Below the pieces are notes generated by a model, which was not told the origin of the DNA, did not search any database, and saw nothing but the letters and a program-made list of their open reading frames with translations. A program made the position numbers and the translations under genes. Shown in pieces: positions 2,332-17,804 of a stretch of 32,000 bases of DNA (positions are counted from its first letter, which is position 1; the number at the start of each line of letters is the position of its first letter). This DNA comes from Acaryochloris thomasi RCC1774 (GTDB taxonomy: Bacteria > Cyanobacteriota > Cyanobacteriia > Thermosynechococcales > Thermosynechococcaceae): assembly GCF_003231495.1 (NCBI RefSeq), contig NZ_PQWO01000018.1, positions 1 to 32,000 on the forward strand. Reading direction: 5' to 3'.

Positions 2332-3180
2332 CTACTGCTTATTAAGTCCCCAATCGTAGTCAAGGTACTTAACCTCATAGTCGCCTTGTTCTAGATATGC
2401 TTTATCTTCTGGGCTGACATAATTACTAACGAAGTTGAGTACAGCTCGTTCCTTGTCACTGCCGCTAAACTTGCCTTCAACAGCGTAGCTGGCCTTCCAG
2501 TCGTCACCGTACCAATCAAAAATCTTAGATAAAAAGACTTGCTTCTGCTCGCGATCAATCTTGAAACCCGTGTCAGGACGGGCTATCCAAATGTTTGTTT
2601 GATCTTCAAGTTGCGCCTCTACCTCTTCGCTGGTGTAGGGTTCATTGCGAAGGATGGGACAACTCATTGCGGCACAGACAAGGGCCGCATGGATGCGAGG
2701 CTCGTCAAATTCCTTGCGAATGGTGTCGTGCTCAATATTGTCGAGTGTTTTCTTCTCGCCGGCAATATCATATTTGGTAATGTCCCAAACACCTGTAATA
2801 TTTCGGATGCTGCCTTTAAGGGGTTCCTGATCAATAATGGCCTGCAGCGTAAACGAGTTATAGGCATTCATCAAAAAGGCTAGTTTCTCAGGTTCACTCC
2901 AGCCGCCATATATGTCAGCGGGGACAGCAGCCAGCGTGGCATTGAACCGATCTAAGGCTTCCCGGTCCTGCTGCAGAGCTTCGTAGTCAACTAAGCCTTC
3001 GTCATCAACATGGGCCGTCAGAACTGTCGCATAATCTTCATAGGAAAAAGGCTTCCCTTCCTTGATGTTGCTGACAATCTGTGAAGAGGCGGGCTGCTGC
3101 AGTTGATTTTCCAACACAGGCACAGTGCAGCCCATTAGGAATAGGCTGGGCAAAAGGATAAGGGATAAACGCCGTTTCAT
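2332..3180 (-). CDS. DUF547 domain lipoprotein
   Basis: The N-terminus has a signal peptide with a lipobox (LFLMGC). DUF547 hallmarks are present: AFLMNAYNSFTLQAII and IHAALVCAAMSCPILRNEPYT. Confidence 0.85.
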   Translation of the reverse strand: MKRRLSLILLPSLFLMGCTVPVLENQLQQPASSQIVSNIKEGKPFSYEDYATVLTAHVDDEGLVDYEALQQDREALDRFNATLAAVPADIYGGWSEPEKLAFLMNAYNSFTLQAIIDQEPLKGSIRNITGVWDITKYDIAGEKKTLDNIEHDTIRKEFDEPRIHAALVCAAMSCPILRNEPYTSEEVEAQLEDQTNIWIARPDTGFKIDREQKQVFLSKIFDWYGDDWKASYAVEGKFSGSDKERAVLNFVSNYVSPEDKAYLEQGDYEVKYLDYDWGLNKQ

Positions 3181-3268: not shown

Positions 3269-5335
3269 TTAAACCTTTTGTGGATGAGTCGAACCTATTG
3301 CGGGCATTTCTGTCTCAAATGATTGCTGTTTAAGGGTCCATAGCCAGCCTAGTACGTAGGGCAGCCAAAGTACGGTTCGTTCGCTATTAGAGAGATACCA
3401 GGAGAAATCATCCTGGGTCAAAATACGAAAGGGCAGGACAAAATAGACAAAGACGGACAGACTGACTAGGCGAGTTCCCCAATTGCGACTCATGACTGAG
3501 AAAGGGACTAACCAGGTAAAATACCAGGCATGAATAATGGGCGAAAGAATCAGTAATAGCCCCAAAAATGCTTCCGTAAATTGACCCAGGGTACGGGATT
3601 TTAAGATCAGCCACAGTCCTACACCGCCTAGAGGGATGAGATAGGTCCAGTTATTCCAGCGGAGGACATCAATATTCCCGAGAAGGTGGGGGATCAGTTC
3701 GGCGCTGCGACCGTGGGTGACGAAGGTAGAGCTGGTGGGCACAAGGGGGCAGGAACCTTCAAGGCAAAAAGGAAGGGCGGTGATTACCATCGGCAAGCAG
3801 ACACACAGGAGTATGACAGGCACCCACTTCAGCCACTTTTGTCGTACCGTTCGCCACACTAAGAAACTCAAAATCGGCAGAGAGATCCACTTGACGGCAA
3901 CGCTGATGCCGAGCAGGAGGCTGCTGATGGTAATCTGCTTTGGCGTTTTGGGTCGGCTGGGTGAGTCAAGCCAGAGCCAGGCGGCGACGAGGGGGAGCAA
4001 AAACCAGCTATCGTAGTGGCCGCCACCGGCAAAAGAGTACAGAACAATTGGGTTCCAGGCATAGAGTAAGGTTTTTGCGTGGCCGAAGCGATGACTAAGC
4101 AAACCGCAGATTAAGAGGTCGGCGACTACAAAGCCAACTTTAAACAGCAATACGGAGGTAGAAAGGGCTGCTAATCCACGAAATCCCCACTGGGTTAAAG
4201 GGGGATAAATGGCTGAGACATCTAGATGGTTGATCTGAGACCACCAATCGGTTCGATACTCAATCAGGGCTTCGGCATTGGGGGCAAGATGGAAGGGACT
4301 AAACCCTAGGTTTTGAATACGGCCTTCCCAGAGATAGCGCCAGATATCGTCTCCGGGCTGCATGGGCAGCAGCAGCAGGCGAGCTGCAATAGAGACGGCC
4401 CAAAACCAAACCGCGCTGAGACGCTGCACCAGCCAAGAGAGGACAAAGCCCAGTCCTAGAACCGCAGTGCCTAAATAGAAGCGATTAAAGGAGTCTATGG
4501 AAGAAAAGTCGCCGTAGGGAGCAATCAGGGCGCAGCCTGCCATGAGCAAGAGGGTGCTCAGCCACAGCCAATGCACTTTTTGAGGAACGGGGTCCGATTG
4601 CTGAAGGGGCAGAACGCGCCAGCGACGGCTGTAAAGCTGGCCGAGGGTACTGAGAATTACAATTCCGGCTTGGATGCTGCCGGACAGGGTGCCAGAGATT
4701 TTTGAACGTCCGCCCAAACGACGGCGATACCCAACGGGCAGTTCGCTGATCCGTAAGCCGCACTCAACGGCGCGGACCTGCATCTCAACGGTCCAACCGA
4801 AGCCGCGATCTTGCATTTGGATTGTGTCTAGCGCTGAGCGCCGAATCAGGCGTAAGGGGCCAAGGTCGTGATATCGATGCTTCCAGCCGAGGGCGATCAG
4901 ACGGGTGGCGAGCTGGTTGCCAAAGCCTTGGGTTGCTGTCATGGCCGCTCGTCCGGTGGGAGTGGCGCGGCGATTGCCCAAAATTAGGTCATACTGCTCT
5001 CGCTGGTCGAGAAATTTGGATAGTTTACTGAGATCATCACTGCCATCACCGTCACAGAAAAAAATCCAGTCGATGTGATGGGGAAGATTTTGTAGTCCTT
5101 GCCAGCAGGCTTGCCCGTAGCCAGGAGTGGGCTCTCGCACGACTTCGGCCCCGGTCTGGGTTGCGATCGCAACGCTCTGATCGGTACTGCCGTTATCTAC
5201 CACGCGCAGGTTGTAGAGACCGTGGGACTGCAGATCGTGGATCACCCCTTTGATGGTGGCTTCTTCATTTAGAACTGGAATAATGACCAGAATATTATTG
5301 AGATTGTTCTGATCCGAGGACATAGCTGAAGTCAT
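3269..5335 (-). CDS. Fusion glycosyltransferase: N-terminal GT2 (polyprenyl-phosphate sugar synthase-like) plus C-terminal multi-pass GT-C/DUF2029-like membrane domain
   Basis: GT2 motifs: ILVIIPVLNEEATI, VVDNGSTDQS, FFCDGDGSDD. Ten or more hydrophobic helices follow, with the loop motif PGDDIWRYLWEGR..GFSPF typical of polyprenol-phosphate-dependent GT-C (GT87/DUF2029-like) enzymes. The track ORF extends to 5509, but ATG at 5335 (MTSAMSSDQNN) precedes the GT2 domain. Confidence 0.8.
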   Translation of the reverse strand: MTSAMSSDQNNLNNILVIIPVLNEEATIKGVIHDLQSHGLYNLRVVDNGSTDQSVAIATQTGAEVVREPTPGYGQACWQGLQNLPHHIDWIFFCDGDGSDDLSKLSKFLDQREQYDLILGNRRATPTGRAAMTATQGFGNQLATRLIALGWKHRYHDLGPLRLIRRSALDTIQMQDRGFGWTVEMQVRAVECGLRISELPVGYRRRLGGRSKISGTLSGSIQAGIVILSTLGQLYSRRWRVLPLQQSDPVPQKVHWLWLSTLLLMAGCALIAPYGDFSSIDSFNRFYLGTAVLGLGFVLSWLVQRLSAVWFWAVSIAARLLLLPMQPGDDIWRYLWEGRIQNLGFSPFHLAPNAEALIEYRTDWWSQINHLDVSAIYPPLTQWGFRGLAALSTSVLLFKVGFVVADLLICGLLSHRFGHAKTLLYAWNPIVLYSFAGGGHYDSWFLLPLVAAWLWLDSPSRPKTPKQITISSLLLGISVAVKWISLPILSFLVWRTVRQKWLKWVPVILLCVCLPMVITALPFCLEGSCPLVPTSSTFVTHGRSAELIPHLLGNIDVLRWNNWTYLIPLGGVGLWLILKSRTLGQFTEAFLGLLLILSPIIHAWYFTWLVPFSVMSRNWGTRLVSLSVFVYFVLPFRILTQDDFSWYLSNSERTVLWLPYVLGWLWTLKQQSFETEMPAIGSTHPQKV

Positions 5336-5663
5336 TTCATTTGTATTTGATAGACTAAACGCCGCAGAGGCGCAGTGTCTTATTTTTTGCTGAGAAACCG
5401 AGCAAATGAAGACTAGATATGAAGAAAATGCTCTCCTGAAGTGCCCTAAATGAGTATGAGATAAGACTTCCCTGTGATTCAAATTACCGCCAACCGCTGA
5501 CTGGATCACTGCATTAGGGTGGGAGATCTAAGAAAGTAGGACTTGAGATTAGTGAGGGCAAAGCGGATATTTGTCTACTCAGATCCACTTTGTTCTTGTC
5601 TCCATTTCAAAACTTGGCTGAGATCGCTTTTGCGGGGGAACGCCAAGCATTCATCTACAGTGA

Positions 5664-6209
5664 TTGGTGAAACCAATGGCACTCCTTAATGACAACCGCC
5701 CAGCTTCCATCACACCTTGCCAACGGGCGTATCAGACGAAAATACAGGCCTATTTATTCAAAGGCAAGCTCACCACTGCCGAGATTATGCTTTTAGAGAT
5801 CGAACGGCGTAGGCTCCAGCTCAGTCCTGCAGAAGCCCGCGATATTGAAGCTGAGGTCAGGCGGTCTACCCGTCAGGCGCAGGCGACACGATTGGGGGTG
5901 CTCAGCCTCTTTATACTGGGGCTTGGGACGATGACTCTGTTACTGCAGACGCCGGTCGCAAGTCGGCAGGCACTTCCTTTGAGGGCGCGATCTGAATCCT
6001 CTGGTGTTGTTCCCGTTGAGACATTCTCGTCTAAGGGACAGGGCGCAGATATTCTAGCGAGAGCTAGACAGATAGCGGAACAAAGAGGAGAGCTGGATGT
6101 TGCGATCGCAACCCTTACCCTAATTCCCACCCACAGCCTGCTCTACCCAGAGGTCCAAATCCAGGCTTTGCAGTGGAAACAACAGCAGGCCCAGAACGAG
6201 GCCTTTTAG
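5664..6209 (+). CDS. Hypothetical single-pass membrane protein
   Basis: 181-aa ORF with TTG at 5664 and the first ATG at 5676. It has one hydrophobic helix (LGVLSLFILGLGTMTLLL). I recognise no family. Confidence 0.45.
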   Translation: MVKPMALLNDNRPASITPCQRAYQTKIQAYLFKGKLTTAEIMLLEIERRRLQLSPAEARDIEAEVRRSTRQAQATRLGVLSLFILGLGTMTLLLQTPVASRQALPLRARSESSGVVPVETFSSKGQGADILARARQIAEQRGELDVAIATLTLIPTHSLLYPEVQIQALQWKQQQAQNEAF

Positions 6210-6240
6210 CGCTTGAAGCAAGCCTATACGGCACAAAAAA

Positions 6241-6582
6241 CTAAGCGAACTCCAAGCTGAGACTGGGCATCAACCGTTTCAGGTTCTTGAGAGATTTTGT
6301 TTGCCACAGTGTCGTTTCAGAGCCTTGAATCTGCAGCTTCACATTTCCCTGCTGCCTCACCTTGATAACGAACATCGTCAACATACTGATTCCAGAACTG
6401 TTCAGGAATTCAAGCCCCTGTAGGTTAAGGGTGAATTGTTCAGCACCCCCCAGGGCCTCAAGCATAAACTCCATGATTGGGTCATATTCTTTCATCCCTG
6501 ACAACCGCAAGATTCCTTGAATGTGAACGGTTGCAGACTCTGCATCACGCCAAATTGTATAGTCATCTGTCTTAATTTCCAC
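6241..6582 (-). CDS. SiaC/DUF1987-like (slr1659-type) STAS-like phospho-acceptor protein
   Basis: 113 aa. The layout matches SiaC-type proteins: V.I.G.L.LSG...EYDPIMEFM, then LEFLNSSGISML at the position of the SiaC LNTSS phosphosite. It lies directly downstream of the kinase-like gene. Confidence 0.65.
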   Translation of the reverse strand: MEIKTDDYTIWRDAESATVHIQGILRLSGMKEYDPIMEFMLEALGGAEQFTLNLQGLEFLNSSGISMLTMFVIKVRQQGNVKLQIQGSETTLWQTKSLKNLKRLMPSLSLEFA

Positions 6583-6630
6583 TGGCCACTCCCAAAAGTC
6601 TGATTTTTTTCACGTCAATTGCTGTCATGC

Positions 6631-7221
6631 TTAAACGCCCAATCGCACCGTTACTTTAACCTGAGTTAGGTTTGGGGACTCGGCCACAGGCTCAAAATAC
6701 CAGCCAAATTTAGCGGAATAGTCTTGGAGCATCGTCAGCATTCCTAAATTGGATTCTCCACTTCCAAGGGCAGACTGCTCTAGCTGCTGCACATAAAGGT
6801 CATCAAGATCTGAATTCAGCAATTTTTGAATGAAACTTTGATACTTTTCGACCCTTGATTGATTGGCATAGTTCACCACCTGAAAGATAATTTCTTGCTC
6901 ATATAGAAATAGCGTGATGTGAATCGCTCGGTCCGTCTCGATATCACTATATTTAACAGCATTCTCAAGTAGTTCATTCGCGATGTAGCTGATAGAGGCT
7001 TTGATTGTTTCTCGGCGACTAATCGGTTGCTCTGCATTTTCATCGCCTGGGAAAAAAGTTGAGAAATAGTCACCCAAGAAATCTGCAGATAAGCCATAGT
7101 TTCTCCAACGCTCCTGCCGGGGAATTGCGGTTGGAGAGAAATGTAGGGTCAGATACTCTTCAGAGCGAGGAATATTCTCGGAAGTAATACCAAACTGTTG
7201 AGGAATAGAAACCTGAGACAT
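6631..7221 (-). CDS. SiaB/slr1658-like GHKL-fold serine kinase (anti-sigma-factor-type)
   Basis: 196 aa with an N-box-like ANELLENAVKY and a G-box-like GSGESNLGMLTM. Its size and its position next to the STAS-like gene match RsbW/SiaB-type partner-switching kinases. Confidence 0.65.
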   Translation of the reverse strand: MSQVSIPQQFGITSENIPRSEEYLTLHFSPTAIPRQERWRNYGLSADFLGDYFSTFFPGDENAEQPISRRETIKASISYIANELLENAVKYSDIETDRAIHITLFLYEQEIIFQVVNYANQSRVEKYQSFIQKLLNSDLDDLYVQQLEQSALGSGESNLGMLTMLQDYSAKFGWYFEPVAESPNLTQVKVTVRLGV

Positions 7222-7272
7222 AAATCACCTTCTAAAATACTCTAGGTCAAACGTTTGGGACAGAAAATACTT

Positions 7273-8127
7273 TTACTTCGAATTGATCGCTGCAAATCGA
7301 TTGCGACCACCCTCCTTCGCCTGATAGAGCTGTTGATCTGCTTGCTCTAGATGATCTATCCATAATTGACTCGGCAAGGGCACCGTACAGGCCACCCCTA
7401 AACTGAGAGTGACAACAGCACTGTTCTGTGAACGAGCATGGGGAATTTGGAGTTTTTCAATGGAAGCTCGCATTCGCTCAGCGACCTCGACCGCACCCTG
7501 AAGATCGGTTTGAGGTAGAATAACCCCAAATTCTTCCCCTCCGTAGCGGGCCACTAAATCAATGGGGCGCAAAGCCGATTTCCTAAGGGTCAGAGCAATT
7601 TGCTTAAGGCAGGCGTCTCCTGCCAGATGGCCGTAGAGATCGTTGTACTGCTTAAAGTAGTCGATGTCGCCTAAAATCACCGCGATAGGTGCTTTTTCCC
7701 TAGCCATCTGCTTCCATTGCTGAGTCAAATGCTCATCAAAGCGGCGACGATTCGCGATTTGGGTCAAGCTATCTAGACTTGCTAAACTGATTGCCTCGTC
7801 CAGCTTGGCTTCCCACTGCTCATCCACTGCATCCCCGTGATCTACTAGAGTTCGCAGGGTTGTTTCTAAGTCATCTTTCTCCTGCGATAGTATCTCTAGC
7901 AGCTTGGCCAGTTGAGCTGCAGTGCGCTGTTGCTCTGCAGACTTAGCCTTGAGCTGTATGTTGACAGCATGGATTTGAGCTTCAATGAGATCGCCATGCT
8001 CAGCCGTGGTCGATAATGCAATCTGCAAATCTGTATTCTCTTGCCTAAGCTGCTCAACTTCTCGCTGCAATGCAGTCAGTTGTATCGCTTGCTGGTCTTG
8101 TTTAATCTCAGCAGAGTCTATCAACAA
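7273..8127 (-). CDS. Diguanylate cyclase with an N-terminal coiled-coil stalk (SiaD-like)
   Basis: The GGDEF domain has an intact GGEEF (nt 7528-7542) and an I-site RPID five residues upstream. About 110 aa of heptad-rich sequence precede it. The start is TTG, and there is no in-frame ATG near the 5' end. Confidence 0.9.
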   Translation of the reverse strand: MLIDSAEIKQDQQAIQLTALQREVEQLRQENTDLQIALSTTAEHGDLIEAQIHAVNIQLKAKSAEQQRTAAQLAKLLEILSQEKDDLETTLRTLVDHGDAVDEQWEAKLDEAISLASLDSLTQIANRRRFDEHLTQQWKQMAREKAPIAVILGDIDYFKQYNDLYGHLAGDACLKQIALTLRKSALRPIDLVARYGGEEFGVILPQTDLQGAVEVAERMRASIEKLQIPHARSQNSAVVTLSLGVACTVPLPSQLWIDHLEQADQQLYQAKEGGRNRFAAINSK

Positions 8128-8469
8128 CCCAATCCCCCCCGTCTTATACCAATTTCCTGTAGATGTGAACTGCTTTATTTTTGAGATTGCTCATTCTGCA
8201 AGGATCCTGAGCTTATATCTAGGTCATTCCGCTGGGTAATTGGTATCAGCGATCTTTTGGCTAAACTTTTCACCCTGAAGCGCCTTACCGAGATTAGGGT
8301 ACCCTTTCCAATATGGGAACTAACAACCGTTATTTAAATAATGCTTAAATGATGTTGAGCTACATCAAAAAGCTGAGGCTGTTCAGCAATATTGGCAACA
8401 TAATCACTCTCCAGGGCTATTTCATTCCAAAAAGACCGATGATGTGCAAGTCATCTTTGTTCGCTATTT

Positions 8470-8760
8470 ATGTCTTCACTCGCCATCATAGATGCCTTTT
8501 CAGCTCTGCCCGATGTCCGTCGCACCGCAGGTCTTCGCCATCAAAAAGCATTCTGTTTAGCCTTATTCACTCTTTCTATTGCAGCCGGTAATCGAGGCTT
8601 CCTTTCCATTGGCGATTGGCTCAAATCCTATCATGATGCTTTATTGGAGTTGTTCAATCCCCCCAAGCATCGCTTGCCGTCCTACAGCACCATTCGTCGA
8701 GTGCTGTTGGGCACCGATGAATCGCACTTCGCTCAATCCCTAACCCGTTTCTTTGAAATA
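8470..8760 (+). pseudogene. Truncated ISAs1-family transposase; only the N-terminal DDE_Tnp_1-associated domain remains
   Basis: The reading IIDAFSALPDVRRTAGLRHQKAFCLALFTLSIAAGNRGFLSIGDWLKSYHDALLELFNPPKHRLPSYSTIRRVLLGTDESHFAQSLTRFF matches the N-terminal ~95 aa of ISAs1/H-repeat transposases. The DDE catalytic part is absent, and the reading frame runs into the 3' end of the PP2C gene. Confidence 0.7.
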
Positions 8761-8785
8761 GCCCTGATCACTCTCAACGCCGCGA

Positions 8786-10459
8786 TCACCTTTGTTTGAT
8801 CACCACCAGTGTGATGTCATCAAATACTTTCTGTGTCCCGATATGTCGTCGCACATCGTTGATGACTGCCTGCTTGATATCATCAACAGGATGATGCCAA
8901 TTCTGGCACACCACTTTGCAGAGCTGGTCAGGCCCATATAGCCTATTGTCAATGTCACTAGCCTCAGTAATGCCGTCGGTGTAAAGGACAATGCCATCGC
9001 CACGGTTTAGCTGCACAGAGGCATGACTAATAAACTCACCAATCTCATCGACTATGCCGATTGGAAAACCTAAATCAATCGTATCAATACGTTCGATGTT
9101 TCCATCTGAACGCATCACAATGACTTCTTCATGCTGGCCGCTGATGCTGAGCTTTTTATCGGCGTAGGTCAAAACTGATAGGGTCAGATTCTTCGTTGAA
9201 TCCATCCGCTGCACATTCTGATAAATGGTGCGATTTAGCGTTTCCAAGAACTGAACTGGGTTCATCTCTCGCACCTCTTTGAGTGTACGAATAGCAGCTT
9301 GGGTCATCACCATGAGAATGCCACTTTCTAGTCCATGTCCTGTCACATCACCGATCCCGATAGTGACTACTCCATCATGATCGAGAACATCATAGTAATC
9401 CCCACCAACTTCGTCAGCTGACTCCATAAATCCTGCAATATCTAATTCTTCAATCGCCTTTAATTCCTGGGGCTTGGGCAAAATCATTTGCTGCATCTGA
9501 CGCAAAAGATCCAGCTCTGTCTCCATTCGCTGATTCTCAGACTGAAGTCTCTGGTTCAGAGTATTAATGGATTTATTTGCCTGGGCTAGCTGCGAGGTCC
9601 GCTCTGAAACCTTATCTTCAAGGGTAAGATTAGTCTCTTTGAGCTTCTCCGCAAATTGTAGCGTTGCTTTCTCAGATTTCTGTAGCCTGATCTGTGTATG
9701 CTCAAGTGTTTTGATTGCAGTAAATAGCTGCTTTTTCTGATCAGAGAGAGAGGTAATTAAAGCAACGCCCAAAATAACTAGCGTGACGACCCCAATTGTG
9801 TAAGCAAGCGTAGTATTGTTCAAAGCCAGCATTGAAACTGAGGCATCTTCAACGCGGATGAAGCGAACTGCTTCCATTCCGGTGTAATGTAATCCACAAA
9901 TGGCGGCTCCCATGAGGAGCGCTCCCCCTAGCTTTAGTATTTCCTGATCATTGCGCTTTTGTACATAGCTGGCGATCAACAAGGCTGTGCTGGAGGCGAG
10001 GACTGCGATGACTACCGATAGCGCAACAATCCAGGGATTGTAATGCATCTGGGCAGGGACACGCATTGCGGCCATCCCGATGTAGTGCATTGTGCCAATG
10101 CCCCCTCCCATCAGAACCCCTGGAACAATCAGCGCTAGCCAATTCGCGAACCCTCGGTGCAGACTATAAAATGCTATGCCGGAAGCGATGATTGCTGCCA
10201 GCCAAGAAACGACAACGGTGAGTAGGTCATAGGACATTGGAATTGGCAAACGATATGCCAGCATAGCCACAAAGTGCATAGACCAAATCCCTGTCCCCAT
10301 GGTGACGGAGCCGCCCAGTAGCCACCCAGGGCGAATTTGGTTATCCTCTTCAGACGTTATTCTGCCCGTTAGCTCTAGTGTTGTGTAGGAGGCAAGTAGA
10401 GCAATCACAAATGAGAAGAGAACTAAGGGCCAGCTATATTCGCCTATCAGTGTGATCAT
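8786..10459 (-). CDS. MHYT-domain membrane sensor fused to a coiled coil and a PP2C/SpoIIE serine phosphatase (SiaA-like)
   Basis: Seven predicted helices carry three MHYT-type motifs (SMHFVAM, TMHYIGM, GLHYTGM). An ~85-aa coiled coil follows. PP2C motifs are DEVGGDYYDV, GIGDVTGHGLESG, LYTDGITEA and FDDITLVVIK. AGGAG lies 10 nt upstream of the ATG. Confidence 0.9.
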   Translation of the reverse strand: MITLIGEYSWPLVLFSFVIALLASYTTLELTGRITSEEDNQIRPGWLLGGSVTMGTGIWSMHFVAMLAYRLPIPMSYDLLTVVVSWLAAIIASGIAFYSLHRGFANWLALIVPGVLMGGGIGTMHYIGMAAMRVPAQMHYNPWIVALSVVIAVLASSTALLIASYVQKRNDQEILKLGGALLMGAAICGLHYTGMEAVRFIRVEDASVSMLALNNTTLAYTIGVVTLVILGVALITSLSDQKKQLFTAIKTLEHTQIRLQKSEKATLQFAEKLKETNLTLEDKVSERTSQLAQANKSINTLNQRLQSENQRMETELDLLRQMQQMILPKPQELKAIEELDIAGFMESADEVGGDYYDVLDHDGVVTIGIGDVTGHGLESGILMVMTQAAIRTLKEVREMNPVQFLETLNRTIYQNVQRMDSTKNLTLSVLTYADKKLSISGQHEEVIVMRSDGNIERIDTIDLGFPIGIVDEIGEFISHASVQLNRGDGIVLYTDGITEASDIDNRLYGPDQLCKVVCQNWHHPVDDIKQAVINDVRRHIGTQKVFDDITLVVIKQR

Positions 10460-10676
10460 GTTGTTATTTCTCCTAACTCAATGTGAGATTGCTATCCCAC
10501 ACTGGATTTTTCTGCATGAATACTTCAGTAAATGCACAGCCTGAAGAAGACCTGACTAGGCTTGAACAGGTGGTGCTAAGCATAAAGTTCCCATGTCTGT
10601 TCTGACTTGCACATCTGCACAAGTGATAGAGCAATATTTATAATCCTTTTCAAGAGCAAGTAAAACTAGTGAGTTC

Positions 10677-13600
10677 CTAAAGGCGGATGAGGCGATCTCG
10701 CAATATTTCCACTTGCTTTTCGGCTTCAGCCAAAGCGTCTCGAGCACCCTGCACGACCTCTGCTGGAGCCTGATCGACAAACTTAGCGTTCTTCAATCGC
10801 CCAGAAAACGACTTGACTTCCCCTTCAGCTTTCTTGAGACCCTTTTCGATTTTGGCCTTGAGTGCACCCACATCCACTACACCACTCAGGGGAATTAGAA
10901 CTTGAACCGTTCCTTCAACGCCGACAATGGTTTGCGCCAGTTCTCCTTCGAGAACCGGCGTAATGCTTAAAGACTCGACCCTACCAACATCCTTAATATA
11001 GGCCTGGCCTGTCGTCAGGGCTTGACGTTCGCGATCGCTCTCACTTTGCAAGATCACCTTAATCGGCAAACTAGGCTTAATATTGGCCTCGGCTCGCAGA
11101 TTCCGAATCGTACGAATAATGCCAATCAACAGCTCGAACTGTTCTTCAGTGGCATCATCAGTAAACTGCATTATCTCCTTGGTCGATGATTGTGCAGCAG
11201 ACTCTACAGATTCAGATTCTTCGGCAACAGGCAGGGCAGGAGTATCAATAATTACCGGAGGGGGGGCGACTTTCTTTCTCCACTGGTTGACGGTCTGAAT
11301 CGTTTCCTTACGATTTTCTTTCCAGAGCAATTTTTGGTAAGCAAACTGAACAATGGCAAACAGTCCCACAAGCTGAAAGAGCGGCTTTGCTAGAGGGAGG
11401 TGGTTAACCGTTGTTAGGACTGAGCTTGCAACTTCAACTCCCACTAACCCGGAACCAAATAGAAGCAGCGTAATCATGCCTCTCCGATGCTTGCCAATAA
11501 ACGTAGCAATCTGCTCTGGAATCTCTAAGATACGTTCGGCAACCACCCGCCAGTCTTCTTCGCCTGCCCCGCTCGGCGTCGCTAAACCAGAAGAGCTGTG
11601 GGTCACTAGACTCGTCGTGGTGGGCTCAAATGCTGCTGCAGGAGGTGCGACTTCGATATCTAAATGTGTCGTTGCTATCTCAGGATAAAGCTGACAGGCA
11701 AGATATTGCTCCGCCTCTGCCTGGGTGAGTGTCTGCCAAATTTCCTCTGTGATATGAGGCATAAATGGATGCAGCAGTTTCAGCGTCCCTTCTAAGACAA
11801 ACGCTAGCGTCTGTTGGGCTACCCGATGAGAGCCTGTGCCCTTTTCGCGGAGTCGAGGCTTCACCAGCTCGATGTACCAGTCACAGAAATCACCCCAGAT
11901 AAATTCATAGAGTGATTTAGAGGCTTCACCTAGACCATAGGCGTCAATCTGCTGACGCGTTTGGGCCACTAGCCGATGAAACTTTGAAAGAATCCAGCGG
12001 TCGGCGAGTTCAAGATCTTTTAATGCGGGATAGCCCAGTTGAGCTGGCGTCTGATTCTCTAAGTTGATCAGCACAAACCGAGATGCATTCCAGAGCTTGT
12101 TGGCGAAATTTCGAGAGGCTTCGACCGACGATGATTCATCCGTTTTGCGATCGTAGTCTAAGCGGATATCCTGGCCAGCCCCTGCGACTTCGCGAATGAG
12201 CGTATATCGCAGTGCATCGGTTCCGTATTTATCGATTAACACCAATGGGTCAATGCCGTTGTTCTTTGACTTTGACATTTTCTGGCCCTTTTCATCCCGG
12301 ACAAGACCATGAATGTAGACATCTTTAAAAGGCATCTGCTGGGTGAAATGACCCGACATCAACGTCATGCGAGCTACCCAGAAAAAGATGATGTCAAAGC
12401 CGGTCACCAGGGTACTGGTGGGATAATAGGTGGATAGGTCTGCCGTCTCTTCTGGCCATCCCATTGTCGAGAACGGCCATAGCCCTGAAGAGAACCAGGT
12501 ATCTAATACGTCAGGATCCTGGCTGAGCTGGACCTGATCTCCAAACTGTTCTTTTGCTTTGTTCCAAGCCTCTGATTCATCGTGGGCCACAATGAAGGGC
12601 GTATTCTCGCGGATCTCACCCTCTGTTTCGCTCACGGCATACCAGGCCGGAATCTGATGTCCCCACCAAAGCTGGCGAGAGATGCACCAGTCGCGTAAAT
12701 TCTCGAGCCAGTCACGATAGACCTTTGTCCAGCGGTCCGGCACGAAGTTGGGGGACTGCTGCTCATTGAGAAACTTGAGCGTATCGGCGGCCATCGGCCC
12801 AGTTTTCACAAACCACTGGGTTGAAATCAATGGCTCAACAGGGACTTTGCCCCGATCGCTGTAGGGCACGCTGTGGCGATATTCTTCGATCTTCACCAAG
12901 CAGCCGTCTTCTTCTAGCCGCTTGATTACATTCTTGCGGGCTTCAAAACGATCTTGCCCTTCAAATGGCCCCGCGTTTTCATTCAGCCTGCCGTCCTTAT
13001 GCATGATGTTGATCAGCGGCAGATCGTGGCGCTGCCCCATCGCAAAGTCATTCCGGTCATGGGCAGGGGTTACCTTGACGCAACCTGTCCCAAATTCAGG
13101 GTCAACGTGCTCGTCAGCAATCACCGGAATCTCCCGGTCCATAATCGGCAGCTTCAGGGTTTTGCCAATTAGTTCCCTGTAGCGCTCGTCATTGGGATTG
13201 ACCGCCACTGCCGTGTCGCCTAGCATCGTCTCGGGTCGTGTGGTGGCGACTTCCACTGCACCTGAACCATCGGCAAGCGGATAGCGAAAGTGCCATAGAT
13301 GGCCGTCTACTTCTTGCTTCTCGACCTCTTGATCCGAGACGGCTGACTGACTGGCAGGGCACCAGTTGACCATATAATTACCCCGATAGATGAGTCCCTC
13401 GTCATACATGCTGACAAAGGCTTCCCGCACAGCCTTTGAGAGTCCCTCATCCATCGTGAACCGTTCCCGTGACCAGTCCACAGAAACGCCTAAACGACGC
13501 TGCTGATTCACGATCTTGCCGCCCGATTCAGCCTTCCATTTTGTCGCTCTCTCTAAAAAAGCATCACGACCAATCTCATCACGCGTTTTTCCTTCTGCCT

Positions 13601-13952
13601 GGAGTTGCTTCTCAAGGATGGAGTGCACCGCAATACTGGCGTGATCGGTTCCGGGCAGCCAGAGGGTGTTGCAGCCGAGCATTCGGTGGTAGCGCACTAA
13701 CACATCGATCAAAGCGCTTTCAAAGGCATGGCCCATGTGCAGACTGCCCGTGACATTAGGCGGCGGAATCACGACACAGTAGGGTTCCCCTCCGTGGTTA
13801 GGGTCGGCTGTGAATACTCCTTTGCTTTCCCAGTTCTCCTGCCACTTGGCTTCAGTGCTGGCGGGATCATATTGGCTTGAGAGGGCGGGCGCACTAGCAA
13901 TCATAAAGTTGGCTTTGGGTGAGGCGTATTCTATTGATTTTGCCATATTCAC
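10677..13952 (-). CDS. valS: Valine--tRNA ligase carrying a CAAD-type membrane insertion
   Basis: Class I motifs are present: [14 protein letters not shown] and KMSKSKNN. The CP1 editing region and the C-terminal coiled coil are also present. The start is uncertain: ATG at 13952, 13946 or 13904 ([14 protein letters not shown]...). Confidence 0.97.
11170..11675 (-). other. CAAD-like insertion within ValRS containing a two-helix membrane hairpin
   Basis: About 170 extra residues sit between the anticodon-binding body (..ACQLYPEIA) and the C-terminal coiled coil (..[20 protein letters not shown]). The insertion holds two hydrophobic helices, [24 protein letters not shown] and [21 protein letters not shown] (nt ~11325-11477). 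Confidence 0.7.
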
Positions 13953-17006: not shown

Positions 17007-17804
17007 TTGGCGTATCAAACTTCCCTGCAGTCTCAAACGATGGAATTGCTGGTTGCTTATCAAAATCAGCCCTCTATACGGCTGCGCAATCGACTCGTTC
17101 GCCTGAATATGGGCCTTGTGCGCACTATTGCTCATCGACTCGCTCGCCAATGCGCTGAGCCCTACGAAGATCTTGAGCAGTGTGGATCTCTGGGCCTGAT
17201 TACAGCGATCGAACGCTTTGACCCGACGCAAGGATATGCCTTTAGCTCCTTTGCCGTACCCTATATTCGGGGTGATATTCTTCACTTTCTGCGTGATCGC
17301 GGCAACACCGTTCGCCTGCCCCGTCGCTGGCAGGCACTGCACCGCCATGGGCAAAAAGTTCGGCAAGCTCTCACGATGGAGCTAGGTCGTCAGCCCCGCG
17401 ATCAAGAATTGGCCAACGCCCTAGATTTATCGATGAACGAATGGCGCTCTGTGCAGCTAGCGGCCTGCAATCGCGTTCCCTTGAGCCTCAATGCCCGTAT
17501 CTCTCCGAACCAACAGCTACAGTCTGATTCAGCCCTGACGCTAGGGGATGCGCTCGTCGATGCACGGGACCAGATGCAGCAAATCAATGAAGAAGATAGC
17601 GCTGAACTTCAGTATGCTTTGGCGCAAATAGAAGAGACAACCCGTGAGGTCATTCAGCTCGTCTTTTTTAATCAGCTATCACGAAAAGAAGTGGCTGAGC
17701 ACATCGGCGTTAGCCCGGTTACTGTCACTCGCCGCATTAATCGAGGGCTAGAGGAATTGAAGGATTTACTGCAGCAGCCGATGCCAGCAGAAATCTACGG
17801 TTAG
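17007..17804 (+). CDS. Group 3 sigma-70 family RNA polymerase sigma factor (SigF/SigB-type)
   Basis: Region 2 reads NMGLVRTIAHRL...YEDLEQCGSLGLITAIERFDPTQGYAFSSFAVPYIRGDILHFLRD. Region 4 has the HTH LSRKEVAEHIGVSPVTVTRRINRGLEELK. The TTG start at 17007 is preceded by AGGAG; an alternative ATG is at 17040. Confidence 0.9.
   Translation: MAYQTSLQSQTMELLVAYQNQPSIRLRNRLVRLNMGLVRTIAHRLARQCAEPYEDLEQCGSLGLITAIERFDPTQGYAFSSFAVPYIRGDILHFLRDRGNTVRLPRRWQALHRHGQKVRQALTMELGRQPRDQELANALDLSMNEWRSVQLAACNRVPLSLNARISPNQQLQSDSALTLGDALVDARDQMQQINEEDSAELQYALAQIEETTREVIQLVFFNQLSRKEVAEHIGVSPVTVTRRINRGLEELKDLLQQPMPAEIYG

What the first reader, a model, noticed from the sequence alone, without database searches (positions are those of the whole stretch)
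6241..10459. SiaABCD-like partner-switching c-di-GMP module with an MHYT-domain sensor phosphatase
Four minus-strand genes together resemble the SiaABCD circuit described in Pseudomonas aeruginosa. In that circuit phosphatase SiaA and kinase SiaB set the phosphorylation state of SiaC, and unphosphorylated SiaC activates cyclase SiaD. The four genes here are:
- A 7-TM MHYT sensor fused through a coiled coil to a PP2C phosphatase (8786-10459).
- A coiled-coil GGDEF cyclase with intact GGEEF and an RPID I-site (7273-8127).
- A GHKL-like small kinase (6631-7221).
- A 113-aa STAS/DUF1987-like protein (6241-6582) with FLNSSG where SiaC has LNTSS.

Three features differ from the described system. First, the input domain is MHYT, a predicted gas- or metal-sensing membrane domain with three M/L-H-Y/F-x-x-M motifs, rather than SiaA's HAMP-type N-terminus. 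Second, the gene order is A-D-B-C rather than A-B-C-D. Third, the host is a cyanobacterium, where to my knowledge this circuit has not been characterised. If functional, it would link an O2/NO/CO/copper-type signal to c-di-GMP synthesis by protein partner switching.
Basis: partly seen in the sequence, partly recalled or inferred. Interest (0 to 1): 0.7.

Follow-up and report, generated by a model that had tools for sequence, protein, structure and literature searches.

The report
Cyanobacterial SiaABCD-like switch with MHYT sensor
Four adjacent genes in the cyanobacterium Acaryochloris thomasi encode a membrane-sensor phosphatase, a kinase-like protein, a small phospho-switch protein and a c-di-GMP cyclase; they belong to a widespread but mechanistically unstudied cyanobacterial cluster (slr1658/slr1659) that is a distant structural cousin of the Pseudomonas SiaABCD biofilm switch.

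Summary
All four minus-strand ORFs exist at the stated coordinates with the stated domains and motifs.

The kinase-like and STAS-like proteins fail the SiaB and SiaC sequence models. They pass NCBIfam slr1658 (248.7 bits, cut-off 200) and slr1659 (148.7, cut-off 100). Their AlphaFold models nevertheless find SiaB and SiaC as the best PDB matches.

Across 80 cyanobacterial loci, PP2C, coiled-coil GGDEF, slr1658, slr1659 is the usual order. So A-D-B-C is the norm, not a deviation.

The cyclase N-terminus carries two (E/D)HGD motifs exactly 53 residues apart. The same module precedes linked adenylate cyclases and histidine kinases. In six protein clusters it is fused with GGDEF and the slr1658 domain in one chain. 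It is a candidate docking stalk, analogous to the two SiaC-binding motifs of SiaD.

The MHYT input is rare for this cluster type: 1 of 48 partner phosphatases, plus one related MAG. It looks like a gene replacement, with an ISAs1 scar at the junction. MHYT-PP2C itself is common, normally beside a second cluster type linked to an MscS channel.

Verdict: a new variant of a known kind. No biochemistry has been done.

The parts
8786..10459 (-). Gene A: MHYT-domain membrane sensor fused through a coiled-coil linker to a PP2C (SpoIIE/RsbU-type) Ser/Thr phosphatase, 557 aa. It is 100% identical to a protein NCBI names 'putative signaling protein [Acaryochloris thomasi RCC1774]' (P0121).
   Evidence: The full-length gene is intact and ends like its homologues (DDITLVVIKQR).
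9725..10459 (-). MHYT sensor domain of A (aa 1-245), with three motifs: MHFVAM (10262-10279), MHYIGM (10073-10090) and LHYTGM (9875-9892).
   Evidence: Pfam PF03707, three stretches, E 3.4e-47. Motif coordinates were verified. It is 60-63% identical to the MHYT domains of Crinalium-type MHYT-PP2C proteins.
9455..9724 (-). Coiled-coil linker of A (aa 246-335).
   Evidence: No Pfam domain is assigned. It aligns with the SiaA, NarQ and NosR linker regions only weakly. It is 66-71% identical to the linkers of Cache-HAMP-PP2C proteins and 52-59% identical to those of other MHYT-PP2C proteins.
8786..9454 (-). PP2C catalytic domain of A (aa 336-557, plus the stop codon), with the metal-binding motifs GGDYYD (352), GDVTGHG (370), YTDG (493) and DDIT (547).
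   Evidence: Pfam SpoIIE, E 5.9e-38. The invariant columns are D357, D371, G374, H375 and D495; D354, D547 and D548 are at least 90% conserved in 48 partner phosphatases.
8470..8760 (+). Remnant of an ISAs1-family transposase gene (N-terminal DDE_Tnp_1_assoc part only), inside the 658-bp A-D intergenic gap. It is a scar at the point where homology with the closest relative ends.
   Evidence: Pfam PF13808, E 4e-17; NCBIfam transpos_ISAs1 covers model positions 3-67 of 314 only. Relatives have gaps of 80 bp (L085) and 130 bp (L087) with no IS.
7273..8127 (-). Gene D: diguanylate cyclase, 284 aa. It has an N-terminal coiled-coil stalk with two (E/D)HGD motifs, followed by a GGDEF domain.
   Evidence: Orthologues of the same length, with the same motif positions, occur in L085 and L005.
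7798..8127 (-). The '2xEHGD' stalk module of D (aa 1-110): EHGD at 7990-8001 (aa 43-46) and DHGD at 7831-7842 (aa 96-99), 53 residues apart. It is the candidate docking site for the switch proteins.
   Evidence: Two motifs spaced exactly 53 aa apart occur in 44 of 57 linked GGDEF proteins and 16 of 19 linked adenylate cyclases. The module is found in 117 representative clusters, in front of GGDEF, class III cyclase and histidine-kinase domains, and fused with GGDEF plus the slr1658 domain in six of them.
7297..7782 (-). GGDEF catalytic domain of D, with the active site GGEEF (7528-7542) and the inhibitory I-site RPID (7558-7569).
   Evidence: Pfam GGDEF, E 2e-53, aa 116-277. Motifs verified.
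6631..7221 (-). Gene B: slr1658-family GHKL-fold kinase-like protein, 196 aa (A. thomasi C1752_06601). The N-box ELLEN lies at 6961-6975.
   Evidence: NCBIfam slr1658_cyano 248.7 bits against 200; slr1658_superfam 225.2 against 100; SiaB_fam 18.6 against 85. The AF2 model has pLDDT 81.4. Its best PDB fold hit is SiaB 6kko_A, followed by SpoIIAB, UsfX and RsbW. E83 and N87 are invariant, and N117 is invariant in place of the G1-box Asp.
6241..6582 (-). Gene C: slr1659-family STAS-fold protein, 113 aa (C1752_06600). The predicted phospho-site loop N61-S62-S63 lies at 6394-6402.
   Evidence: NCBIfam slr1659_superfam 148.7 bits against 100. The AF2 model has pLDDT 94.7, and helix alpha-2 starts at residue 62. 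The top seven PDB fold hits are SiaC. LNSSG is invariant in 42 aligned homologues, and NSSG is present in 77 of 77.

Best explanation
The region is a four-gene, phosphorylation-driven partner-switch module that sets the activity of a diguanylate cyclase. It is one member of a large cyanobacterial cluster family built around the slr1658/slr1659 protein pair. It is a distant structural homologue of Pseudomonas SiaABCD, not a member of those sequence families.

Proposed mechanism:
1. [quoted passage not shown]
2. The PP2C domain of A removes that phosphate when its MHYT membrane domain detects its signal. The signal is unknown; gas, redox or metal are the usual conjectures.
3. Unphosphorylated C docks on the two (E/D)HGD motifs of the N-terminal stalk of D. 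This stabilises the active GGDEF dimer, so c-di-GMP rises. Product inhibition through the RPID I-site caps the response.

Shown here: the gene content, the family memberships, the fold similarity, the motif conservation, the co-conservation of the genes and the D-B fusions. Inferred by analogy with SiaABCD: every biochemical step, and in particular that C rather than B is the protein that contacts the stalk.

In this genome the phosphatase gene is not the ancestral partner. An MHYT-PP2C from the clade that normally serves MscS-linked 'type II' slr1658/slr1659 clusters has replaced a periplasmic-binding-protein-type PP2C, leaving an ISAs1 scar.
For: Family membership: slr1658_cyano at 248.7 bits (cut-off 200) and slr1659_superfam at 148.7 (cut-off 100).

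Fold:
- B's best PDB hit is SiaB 6kko_A (E 1.2e-5, TM 0.54/0.61), followed by the anti-sigma kinases.
- C's top seven hits are SiaC (E 5.7e-5 to 7.5e-4, TM up to 0.72), ahead of the canonical STAS antagonists.

Phospho-site: LNSSG is invariant, present in 77 of 77 homologues, and sits at the start of helix alpha-2. It matches the SiaC peptide LLYLNTSSIK, in which T68 is phosphorylated. N67-T68-S69 of SiaC insert between the SiaD stalk helices.

Stalk:
- SiaD has two conserved SiaC-binding motifs on its stalk.
- D has two (E/D)HGD motifs exactly 53 aa apart, as do 44 of 57 linked cyclases and 16 of 19 linked adenylate cyclases.

Co-conservation: slr1659 is adjacent to slr1658 in 79 of 80 loci. 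A stalk-GGDEF gene is present in 37 of 51 loci with full flanks, a PP2C gene in 34 of 51, and all four genes in 33 of 51.

Rosetta-stone fusions: six representative clusters encode stalk + GGDEF + slr1658 domain in one polypeptide.

Catalytic motifs of the PP2C and GGDEF domains are intact.

Gene replacement:
- A is 56-59% identical to Crinalium-type MHYT-PP2C, yet B and C are only 43% and 48% identical to their partners, against 62% and 67% for the GGDEF-linked type.
- The closest relative, L085, is 80% identical at DNA level from D downstream, but carries an unrelated Peripla_BP-PP2C (46% identity).
- A's catalytic domain is 70-75% identical to PP2Cs of MscS-linked clusters.
- The same MHYT-PP2C (77% identical) lies next to a GGDEF-B-C cluster in an Acaryochloridaceae MAG, with no IS.
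Against: - There is no biochemical or genetic data for any of these proteins.
- The Sia sequence models are all failed.
- The slr1658 family lacks the GHKL G1-box aspartate: an invariant Asn117 sits in 'NYA'. Kinase activity is therefore not assured.
- The stalk motifs differ from SiaD's in sequence and in spacing (53 residues against 32), and nothing shows that C binds them. The D-B fusions tether B, not C, to the cyclase.
- A is separated from D by 658 bp carrying an IS remnant and a terminator-like hairpin at 8387-8372. The number of such sites in the region is no greater than chance, however.
- A comes from a phosphatase clade that normally partners a different C subtype.
- In the only other MHYT+GGDEF cluster (L087), A has in-frame stops and B has a frameshift.
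- In Synechocystis, loss of slr1658 gives a transcriptional phenotype (pgr5 up about 1000-fold) whose link to c-di-GMP is unknown.
Confidence: 0.55

Rival explanations
1. This is a classical anti-sigma-style wiring. The kinase-like protein B, not C, binds the EHGD stalk and holds cyclase D (in)active. Unphosphorylated C acts only as an antagonist that pulls B off, as RsbV does to RsbW and SpoIIAA does to SpoIIAB.
For: B's fold matches SpoIIAB, UsfX and RsbW almost as well as it matches SiaB. Six natural fusions join the cyclase to the slr1658 domain, not to the slr1659 domain. B has a highly conserved N-terminal extension of about 68 residues that is absent from the much shorter anti-sigma kinase chains it matches, and this could be a docking surface. 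By sequence, C's closest profile matches are anti-sigma antagonists.
Against: The seven best fold hits of C are SiaC, including SiaC bound to SiaD. The N-S-S loop matches the SiaC residues that contact the SiaD stalk. A fusion of B to D is equally compatible with B simply being kept close to its substrate.
Confidence: 0.2
2. The MHYT-PP2C (A) is merely juxtaposed to D-B-C by an IS-mediated rearrangement and does not feed into it. It serves another (type II, MscS-linked) slr1658/slr1659 pair elsewhere in the genome, or nothing at all. The cyclase cluster has lost its dedicated phosphatase.
For: An ISAs1 fragment lies in the 658-bp A-D gap. Homology with the closest relative ends exactly at the start of D. 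A's sensor and catalytic domains both belong to the clade linked to type II clusters. All five Crinalium-type MHYT-PP2C loci examined lack a stalk-GGDEF gene.
Against: A second Acaryochloridaceae genome has the same MHYT-PP2C 130 bp upstream of a GGDEF-(B)-C cluster without any IS. A is on the same strand as D-B-C and is intact. The phospho-loop LNSSG is invariant in both C subtypes, so cross-reactivity is plausible. Sensor domains on partner phosphatases are highly interchangeable in this family: HAMP, PAS, Cache, Peripla_BP, MASE1 and REC all occur. Several PP2C genes can converge on a single pair.
Confidence: 0.2
3. B is a pseudokinase and the module does not use phosphorylation. B and C are ligand- or conformation-driven adaptors, and the PP2C protein has another substrate.
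For: The G1-box Asp of GHKL ATPases is replaced by an invariant Asn in the whole family. All Pfam GHKL models are sub-threshold. No PDB sequence match exists.
Against: The N-box Glu and Asn and a glycine-rich G2-like loop are invariant. SiaB, the best fold match, is an active kinase. An invariant Ser-Ser sits at the canonical phospho-site, and a PP2C gene is co-conserved in about two thirds of complete loci. Both are hard to explain without phosphorylation.
Confidence: 0.08
4. The real output is transcriptional. B is an anti-sigma factor for a sigma factor such as the group-3-like one at 17007-17804, and the cyclase is only a co-regulated neighbour.
For: Loss of slr1658 in Synechocystis derepresses pgr5 about 1000-fold. 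A sigma-70-family gene lies about 6.5 kb from A. B has the anti-sigma kinase fold.
Against: A homologue of that sigma factor lies within 10 kb in only 4 of 80 loci. A stalk-GGDEF gene is present in 55 of 80, and fused to B in six clusters. A transcriptional phenotype could equally arise downstream of c-di-GMP or cAMP.
Confidence: 0.07

Closest known systems
SiaABCD of Pseudomonas aeruginosa (PP2C phosphatase SiaA, kinase SiaB, phospho-protein SiaC, diguanylate cyclase SiaD)
   Same: - The four-part logic is the same: sensor-PP2C, small GHKL-fold kinase, STAS-fold phospho-protein, stalk-GGDEF cyclase.
- B and C have SiaB and SiaC as their best PDB fold matches.
- The N-(S/T)-S loop sits at the start of helix alpha-2.
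- The cyclase has a long N-terminal helical region with two repeated conserved motifs.
   Different: - All four Sia sequence models are failed.
- The gene order is A-D-B-C.
- The sensor is MHYT rather than two TM helices plus HAMP.
- The phospho-residue is Ser rather than Thr.
- The stalk motif is (E/D)HGD with 53-residue spacing, where SiaD has S/Q motifs 32 residues apart.
- In relatives the same switch pair is also linked to adenylate cyclases and histidine kinases carrying the same stalk, and to MscS-like channels that lack it.
Slr1658/Slr1659 of Synechocystis sp. PCC 6803 (NCBIfam NF052618, NF047703, NF047705; Pfam DUF6272)
   Same: B and C score above the curated cut-offs of these models. 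B and C are adjacent, as in 79 of 80 loci. A Synechocystis MAG (L061) has PP2C, stalk-GGDEF, slr1658 and slr1659 in the same order.
   Different: Only a genetic phenotype is published: a defect in recovery from iron starvation and pgr5 derepression, with the signalling chain stated to be unknown. No paper in the searchable library links the pair to PP2C, GGDEF or Sia. The window's cluster has an MHYT input, which was not seen in any of the 80 surveyed loci.
RsbU-RsbV-RsbW and SpoIIE-SpoIIAA-SpoIIAB partner-switching modules (Bacillus and relatives)
   Same: Both have a PP2C phosphatase, a GHKL anti-sigma kinase fold and a STAS antagonist with a phospho-Ser at the N-terminus of alpha-2. These proteins are the next-best fold matches and the only weak sequence matches.
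   Different: There is no conserved sigma-factor linkage (4 of 80 loci). The output genes are nucleotide cyclases. All Pfam and NCBIfam models for these families are sub-threshold.
MHYT-domain signalling proteins (for example P. aeruginosa NbdA and MucR, B. subtilis YkoW, CoxC/CoxH). From my own knowledge of Galperin et al. 2001 and later work; not checked here.
   Same: Three MHYT repeats in a multi-pass membrane domain lie N-terminal to a cytoplasmic signalling output.
   Different: The output is a PP2C phosphatase rather than GGDEF-EAL or a histidine kinase. MHYT-PP2C is itself a common but uncharacterised architecture. No ligand has been demonstrated for any MHYT domain, to my knowledge.

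Membership tests
SiaB family protein kinase (NCBIfam NF038262) | Score at or above the curated cut-off of 85 bits | tested here: not met
   18.6 bits, E 0.001.
SiaC / DUF1987 (Pfam PF09345, NCBIfam SiaC model) | Any significant match to the family HMM | tested here: not met
   No hit at E<=10 in Pfam or NCBIfam. HMMER's filters drop most matches above about 0.1.
SiaA equivalog (NF038263) and SiaD equivalog (NF038266) | Scores at or above the cut-offs of 700 and 290 bits | tested here: not met
   SiaA 63.7 bits, covering the linker and PP2C only. SiaD 146.5 bits, covering the GGDEF domain only.
SiaABCD-type system (functional kind) | The kinase and the phospho-protein adopt the SiaB and SiaC folds | tested here: met
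   B model (pLDDT 81.4): best hit 6kko_A SiaB, E 1.2e-5. C model (pLDDT 94.7): top seven hits are SiaC chains, TM 0.61-0.72.
SiaABCD-type system (functional kind) | [quoted passage not shown] | tested here: met
   N61-S62-S63 is invariant. Helix 62-78 starts there in the model. The SiaC peptide is LLYLNTSSIK with pT68. Phosphorylation itself was not tested.
SiaABCD-type system (functional kind) | The cyclase has an N-terminal stalk with two conserved binding motifs for the small protein | tested here: inconclusive
   Two conserved (E/D)HGD motifs are present at a fixed 53-residue spacing. They are unrelated in sequence to SiaD's S50/Q54 and S82/Q86 motifs. Binding was not tested, and no multimer prediction tool was available.
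SiaABCD-type system (functional kind) | Kinase, phosphatase and cyclase-activation activities | not testable with these tools
   These need Phos-tag or mass-spectrometry assays and DGC assays.
slr1658 family (NF052618 equivalog; NF047703 superfamily; Pfam DUF6272) | Scores at or above the curated cut-offs (200, 100 and 26.6 bits) | tested here: met
   248.7, 225.2 and 30.7 bits.
slr1659 superfamily regulator (NF047705) | Score at or above 100 bits, and adjacency to an slr1658 gene | tested here: met
   148.7 bits. The gene lies 48 bp downstream of B. Adjacency holds in 79 of 80 loci.
GHKL (Bergerat-fold) protein kinase | N-box (E...N), G1 box (DxGxG) and G2 box | tested here: inconclusive
   N-box residues E83 and N87 are invariant, and a G2-like GxGxSNxG is conserved. 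The G1 Asp is replaced by an invariant N117. Pfam HATPase_c_5 scores 17.3 against 22, and HATPase_c 13.5 against 26.4.
STAS anti-sigma-factor antagonist (Pfam PF01740/PF13466, TIGR00377) | Score at or above the gathering cut-off | tested here: not met
   17.7 against 22.6; 18.6 against 29.2; 26.4 against 53.45. The STAS fold is nevertheless clear.
MHYT domain (Pfam PF03707) | Repeated MHYT-motif transmembrane units scoring above the cut-off | tested here: met
   Three stretches, 158.7 bits against 21. The motifs are at aa 61, 124 and 190.
PP2C / SpoIIE phosphatase (Pfam PF07228) | Domain match plus the metal-binding aspartates | tested here: met
   131.2 bits against 25. GGDYYD, GDVTGHG, YTDG and DDIT are present, and the columns are conserved in 48 homologues.
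GGDEF diguanylate cyclase (Pfam PF00990) | Domain match, an intact GG(D/E)EF motif and an RxxD I-site | tested here: met
   180.8 bits. GGEEF is at aa 196 and RPID at aa 187.

The most novel reading that the evidence does not exclude
The slr1658/slr1659 pair is a general-purpose phospho-switch of cyanobacteria. It docks on a portable two-motif 'EHGD' stalk module and thereby controls three classes of output enzyme: diguanylate cyclases, adenylate cyclases and histidine kinases. Interchangeable sensor-PP2C phosphatases serve as its inputs. The A. thomasi version would be wired to an MHYT membrane sensor, giving an oxygenic phototroph a direct gas/redox/metal-to-c-di-GMP pathway. The NOS genes next to related MHYT-PP2C clusters in Crinalium and Nostoc would point to NO as the signal. 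The same logic would explain the so far unexplained regulatory role of Slr1658 in Synechocystis.
Probability: 0.3. Interest if true: 0.8.

Novelty: new variant of a known kind. Interest (0 to 1): 0.58.

Why it matters
Partner-switch control of a diguanylate cyclase has been worked out mechanistically for the Pseudomonas Sia system. This locus, and the hundreds of related cyanobacterial clusters behind it, suggest the same logic evolved, or diverged beyond sequence recognition, in oxygenic phototrophs.

In cyanobacteria it appears with a recognisable portable stalk module and swappable sensors. That yields concrete, cheap experiments for three open issues:
- what Slr1658/Slr1659 do mechanistically. 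Their loss derepresses pgr5 about 1000-fold, and the pathway is unknown;
- how cyanobacteria couple membrane-sensed signals to c-di-GMP and cAMP;
- what MHYT domains sense.

For this particular window the added value is narrower. It is a rare sensor variant, with signs of recent gene replacement.

Tried and rejected
- **Membership in the Sia families.** Tested with NCBIfam and Pfam, also at E<=10, and rejected.
- **Sequence search of the slr1658 profile against PDB.** No hits. The slr1659 profile gave only E of about 0.2 to anti-sigma antagonists. I therefore moved to structure prediction and fold search.
- **Anti-sigma-factor reading.** The window's sigma-70-family gene has a homologue near only 4 of 80 loci, so I down-weighted it.
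- **NOS linkage.** The window has no NOS gene. NOS occurs in only 2 of 5 related MHYT-PP2C loci, so I kept it only as a lead.
- **Promoter and terminator scan of 6100-10700.** Counts were at or below the shuffled expectation, so there is no usable evidence on operon structure.
- **Metagenome scan with an MHYT-domain alignment.** Of 80 loci, only 2 were MHYT-PP2C. The rest had other MHYT architectures. It produced no further example of MHYT-PP2C beside a stalk-GGDEF gene.
- **EHGD motif in the MscS-like proteins of type II clusters.** Absent.
- **The original Slr1658 paper (Zer et al. 2018, PMID 29161470).** Not held. Its content is cited only through PMC7555055 and PMC6525291.
- **Domain-level origin of A (MHYT grafted onto a local PP2C, or whole-gene transfer).** The identity differences are too small to decide. 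The PP2C domain is 63-69% identical to MHYT-PP2C proteins and 70-75% to Cache/CHASE2-PP2C proteins.

Full report
**1. The observation**

The ORF list reproduces the four minus-strand genes exactly: A 8786-10459 (557 aa), D 7273-8127 (284 aa), B 6631-7221 (196 aa) and C 6241-6582 (113 aa). The gaps are 51 bp (D-B) and 48 bp (B-C), but 658 bp between A and D.

- **A.** Pfam confirms three MHYT repeats (E 3.4e-47) and a SpoIIE/PP2C domain (E 5.9e-38). The three motifs are MHFVAM, MHYIGM and LHYTGM, at residues 61, 124 and 190. The PP2C metal-binding motifs are intact.
- **D.** Pfam finds a GGDEF domain (E 2e-53). D has GGEEF and an RPID I-site at the canonical spacing.
- **B.** It matches Pfam DUF6272 above threshold, and GHKL models only weakly.
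- **C.** It has only sub-threshold STAS matches.

B, C and A are each 100% identical to proteins of Acaryochloris thomasi RCC1774, on a 93-kb contig.

One feature was not reported. The A-D gap contains, on the plus strand, an N-terminal fragment of an ISAs1-family transposase gene (8470 to about 8760; DDE_Tnp_1_assoc, E 4e-17).

**2. Which families these proteins belong to**

| Protein | Model | Score (bits) | Cut-off | Result |
|---|---|---|---|---|
| B | slr1658_cyano | 248.7 | 200 | pass |
| B | slr1658_superfam | 225.2 | 100 | pass |
| C | slr1659_superfam | 148.7 | 100 | pass |
| B | SiaB family | 18.6 | 85 | fail |
| A | SiaA | 63.7 | 700 | fail |
| D | SiaD | 146.5 | 290 | fail |

No SiaC/DUF1987 match appears for C, even at E<=10. 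By sequence, then, this is an slr1658/slr1659 cluster and not a Sia operon.

The searchable literature holds only a genetic phenotype for Slr1658. [quoted passage not shown] The papers state that no details of the signalling chain are known. No paper in the library mentions DUF6272, or a mechanism for Slr1659.

**3. Fold-level relationship to Sia**

Profile searches against PDB sequences found nothing for the slr1658 family. For slr1659 they found only E of about 0.2 to anti-sigma antagonists. AlphaFold2 models built from family alignments were of good quality: B has pLDDT 81.4 and C has 94.7.

- Foldseek against the PDB puts SiaB (6kko_A, E 1.2e-5) first for B. SpoIIAB, UsfX and RsbW follow.
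- For C, the seven best hits are all SiaC chains, including SiaC bound to SiaD (7e6g_F, E 5.7e-5, TM 0.72/0.67). The canonical STAS antagonists come after them.

In the C family the sequence LNSSG is invariant, and NSSG is present in 77 of 77 homologues. In the model, helix alpha-2 begins at residue 62. In SiaC the peptide LLYLNTSSIK carries the phospho-threonine T68, also at the N-terminus of alpha-2. N67-T68-S69 are the residues that insert between the SiaD stalk helices. Ser62 of C is therefore the obvious candidate phospho-site.

For B, the GHKL N-box residues (E83, N87) and a glycine-rich G2-like loop are invariant. The G1-box aspartate, however, is replaced by an invariant asparagine, so kinase activity cannot be taken for granted.

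**4. Conservation of the gene set**

One scan of 185,579 species genomes with an slr1658 alignment found at least 554 relatives. The 80 best loci were analysed.

- slr1659 follows slr1658 directly in 79 of 80 loci.
- A GGDEF protein of about 290 aa, with the same N-terminal coiled coil as D, lies on the same strand within 3 kb in 55 of 80 loci (37 of the 51 loci with at least 4 kb on both sides). In 44 loci it lies immediately upstream of slr1658.
- A PP2C gene lies within 6 kb in 46 of 80 loci (34 of 51).
- All four genes are present in 33 of 51 complete loci.

The commonest order is PP2C, GGDEF, slr1658, slr1659.

The partner phosphatases carry many different sensors: HAMP 21, PAS 16, dCache 13, periplasmic-binding protein 10, REC 3 and MASE1 2 of 48. 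MHYT occurs only in the window.

In 24 loci a fifth gene follows slr1659. Twenty of the 22 examined encode the same N-terminal coiled coil, two PAS domains and a class III nucleotide cyclase. Their consensus has the Lys and Asp pair typical of adenylate cyclases; that specificity call is my inference from general knowledge. The window lacks this gene.

**5. A shared stalk module**

D has EHGD at residues 43-46 and DHGD at 96-99.

- Two [ED]HG[DE] motifs exactly 53 residues apart occur in 44 of 57 linked GGDEF proteins and in 16 of 19 linked adenylate cyclases. They sit in a conserved context, DL.IaL.TT.EHGD.IE.
- An exhaustive phmmer search with D residues 1-110 against 1.84 billion representatives found 117 clusters.
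- Their other domains are GGDEF (59), PAS (about 24), histidine-kinase cores (15-16, often with REC), class III cyclase (9) and DUF6272 (5 by Pfam).
- By my own HMM search, six representatives (467-528 aa) are single polypeptides of stalk + GGDEF + slr1658 domain.

These fusions are independent evidence that the cyclase and the kinase-like protein act together.

SiaD is activated when four SiaC molecules bind two conserved motifs on its dimeric stalk, and phosphorylation of T68 prevents this. The two-motif stalk found here is the natural candidate for an equivalent docking site. Its sequence and its spacing (53 residues against 32) differ from SiaD's, and binding is untested.

**6. Where the MHYT phosphatase comes from**

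MHYT+PP2C proteins are common. Most of the 120 best hits of A have both domains, and they come from cyanobacteria, Gammaproteobacteria and Bryobacteraceae.

The closest full-length relatives are 51-60% identical: Crinalium epipsammum PCC 9333, Nostoc linckia NIES-25 and three metagenome contigs. In all five, the gene is followed directly by an slr1658-like gene and a 117-aa slr1659-like gene, with no stalk-GGDEF gene.

These clusters, and related ones with Cache-HAMP or CHASE2 phosphatases, usually continue with an MscS-family channel gene of about 540 aa. That channel protein lacks the EHGD motif. I call these 'type II' clusters. Some of them stack two or three sensor-PP2C genes upstream of a single pair.

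The window is a mixture of the two types.

- A is 56-59% identical to type II MHYT-PP2C proteins.
- B and C are only 43% and 48% identical to the type II pair, against 62% and 67% for a typical GGDEF-linked pair.
- A's catalytic domain is 70-75% identical to type II-linked PP2Cs, but only 46-50% identical to the PP2Cs of the two closest D-B-C relatives.
- The closest relative, L085 (B 89% identical), shares about 80% DNA identity with the window from the start of D through C, a GT2 gene and a DUF547 gene. Upstream of D it has a periplasmic-binding-protein-type PP2C, 80 bp away.
- An Acaryochloridaceae MAG (L087) has an MHYT-PP2C 77% identical to A, 130 bp upstream of a GGDEF-B-C cluster that is more divergent (D 56%, B 66%, C 55%). 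There is no IS. That copy shows two in-frame stops in A and a frameshift in B, which may be MAG errors or decay.

The simplest reading is that the phosphatase gene was exchanged between clusters within Acaryochloridaceae. The ISAs1 fragment then marks the junction in A. thomasi.

A is intact and on the same strand as D-B-C, and the phospho-loop is invariant in both C subtypes. I therefore consider functional coupling likely, but not certain.

**7. The signal**

Nothing in the window bears on what MHYT senses. There is no NOS, globin or copper gene nearby. The neighbours are a CAAD-containing ValRS, a GT2 protein, DUF547 and others.

A multi-domain nitric oxide synthase gene lies 1-3 kb downstream of the MHYT-PP2C-B-C cluster in Crinalium and in Nostoc linckia, but not in the other three related loci. 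This is a lead, not evidence.

**8. Alternatives**

- A classical anti-sigma arrangement, in which B binds the output, is not excluded. The D-B fusions favour it slightly.
- A sigma-factor output is unlikely: a homologue of the window's sigma gene lies near only 4 of 80 loci.
- A pseudokinase scenario is made possible by the missing G1 aspartate. It is hard to reconcile with the invariant Ser-Ser loop and the co-conserved PP2C.
- Promoter and terminator scans gave counts no higher than shuffled controls. They say nothing reliable about operon structure.

**9. Verdict**

The finding is real. It is not a Sia operon by family membership.

It is a member of the slr1658/slr1659 cluster family, which is named in NCBIfam but has no known mechanism. 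Here it carries a rare, apparently recently acquired, MHYT-PP2C input.

I rate it a new variant of a known kind, with moderate to good interest. Most of the interest lies in the family-level picture: a portable EHGD stalk on three output classes, D-B fusions, swappable sensor phosphatases and a second, MscS-linked cluster type. It also lies in the testable mechanism this gives for Slr1658/Slr1659.

Noticed in passing
window 8470-8799 (+), inside the A-D gap 8128-8785: An N-terminal fragment of an ISAs1-family transposase gene (DDE_Tnp_1_assoc, E 4e-17). The DDE catalytic part is missing. It lies exactly where DNA homology with the closest relative (L085) ends.
   Followed up: yes
L081:10517-14104 (Crinalium epipsammum PCC 9333) and L082:12348-15590 (Nostoc linckia NIES-25): A nitric oxide synthase of about 1200 aa (EF-hand + Fer2_BFD + FAD/NAD-binding + NO_synthase) lies 1-3 kb downstream of an MHYT-PP2C / slr1658-like / slr1659-like cluster, on the same strand. 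It is absent from three other related loci (L084, L088, L089). It may hint that this MHYT lineage is linked to NO.
   Followed up: partly
L082:9693-11336, L088:11709-13340, L090:11628-13238, L091:9583-11181 (fragments in L084 and L092): A second cluster type: one to three sensor-PP2C genes (MHYT, dCache-HAMP, dCache-PAS or CHASE2), then DUF6272 (about 197 aa), a 117-aa STAS protein, and an MscS-family channel of about 540 aa in place of a stalk-GGDEF cyclase. The channel proteins lack the EHGD motif.
   Followed up: partly
P0364, P0386, P0400, P0403, P0420, P0457 (467-528 aa; from the representative search): Natural single-chain fusions of EHGD stalk + GGDEF + slr1658 (DUF6272) domain. P0364 has three EHGD motifs spaced 53 residues apart.
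   Followed up: yes
L005:11127-13001 and 19 further loci (alignment A3): A fifth conserved gene downstream of slr1659 in many clusters: the same 2xEHGD stalk, two PAS domains and a class III (probably adenylate) cyclase. Two loci have a hybrid histidine kinase there instead. The window has no such gene.
   Followed up: partly
L087:1-2900 (Acaryochloridaceae cyanobacterium CSU_3 MAG, GCA_012033135.1): This is the only other MHYT-PP2C + GGDEF + slr1658 + slr1659 locus found. It has two in-frame stop codons in the MHYT part and a frameshift near residue 148 of the slr1658 homologue. These are either assembly errors or a decaying cluster.
   Followed up: partly
window 10677-13952 (-): The valyl-tRNA synthetase carries a CAAD insertion (PF14159, aa 814-895) between the anticodon-binding domain and the C-terminal arm. 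This is the known membrane-anchoring insertion of some cyanobacterial aminoacyl-tRNA synthetases.
   Followed up: partly
window 23466-25739 (+): A 757-aa fusion of a pyridine-nucleotide-disulphide oxidoreductase domain (Pyr_redox_2) with AIRS/AIRS_C domains, which resemble selenophosphate synthetase or thiamine-monophosphate kinase. Not examined further.
   Followed up: no
window 3269-5509 (-) and 2332-3180 (-): A 746-aa GT2 glycosyltransferase with a long hydrophobic C-terminal half, and a DUF547 protein. Both are syntenic with the D-B-C cluster in the closest relative, L085. Whether the GT2 is a c-di-GMP-controlled polysaccharide synthase was not tested. DUF547 homologues lie near slr1658 in 6 of 80 other loci.
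   Followed up: partly
window 17007-17804 (+): A sigma-70-family gene with regions 2, 3 and 4 (group-3-like), about 6.5 kb from gene A. Homologues lie within 10 kb of slr1658 in only 4 of 80 loci, so there is no conserved linkage.
   Followed up: yes
window 5664-6209 (+): A 181-aa ORF between gene C and the GT2 gene, with no Pfam or NCBIfam match. The equivalent position in L085 holds an unannotated 269-aa gene, on the strand opposite to that locus's D-B-C genes.
   Followed up: no
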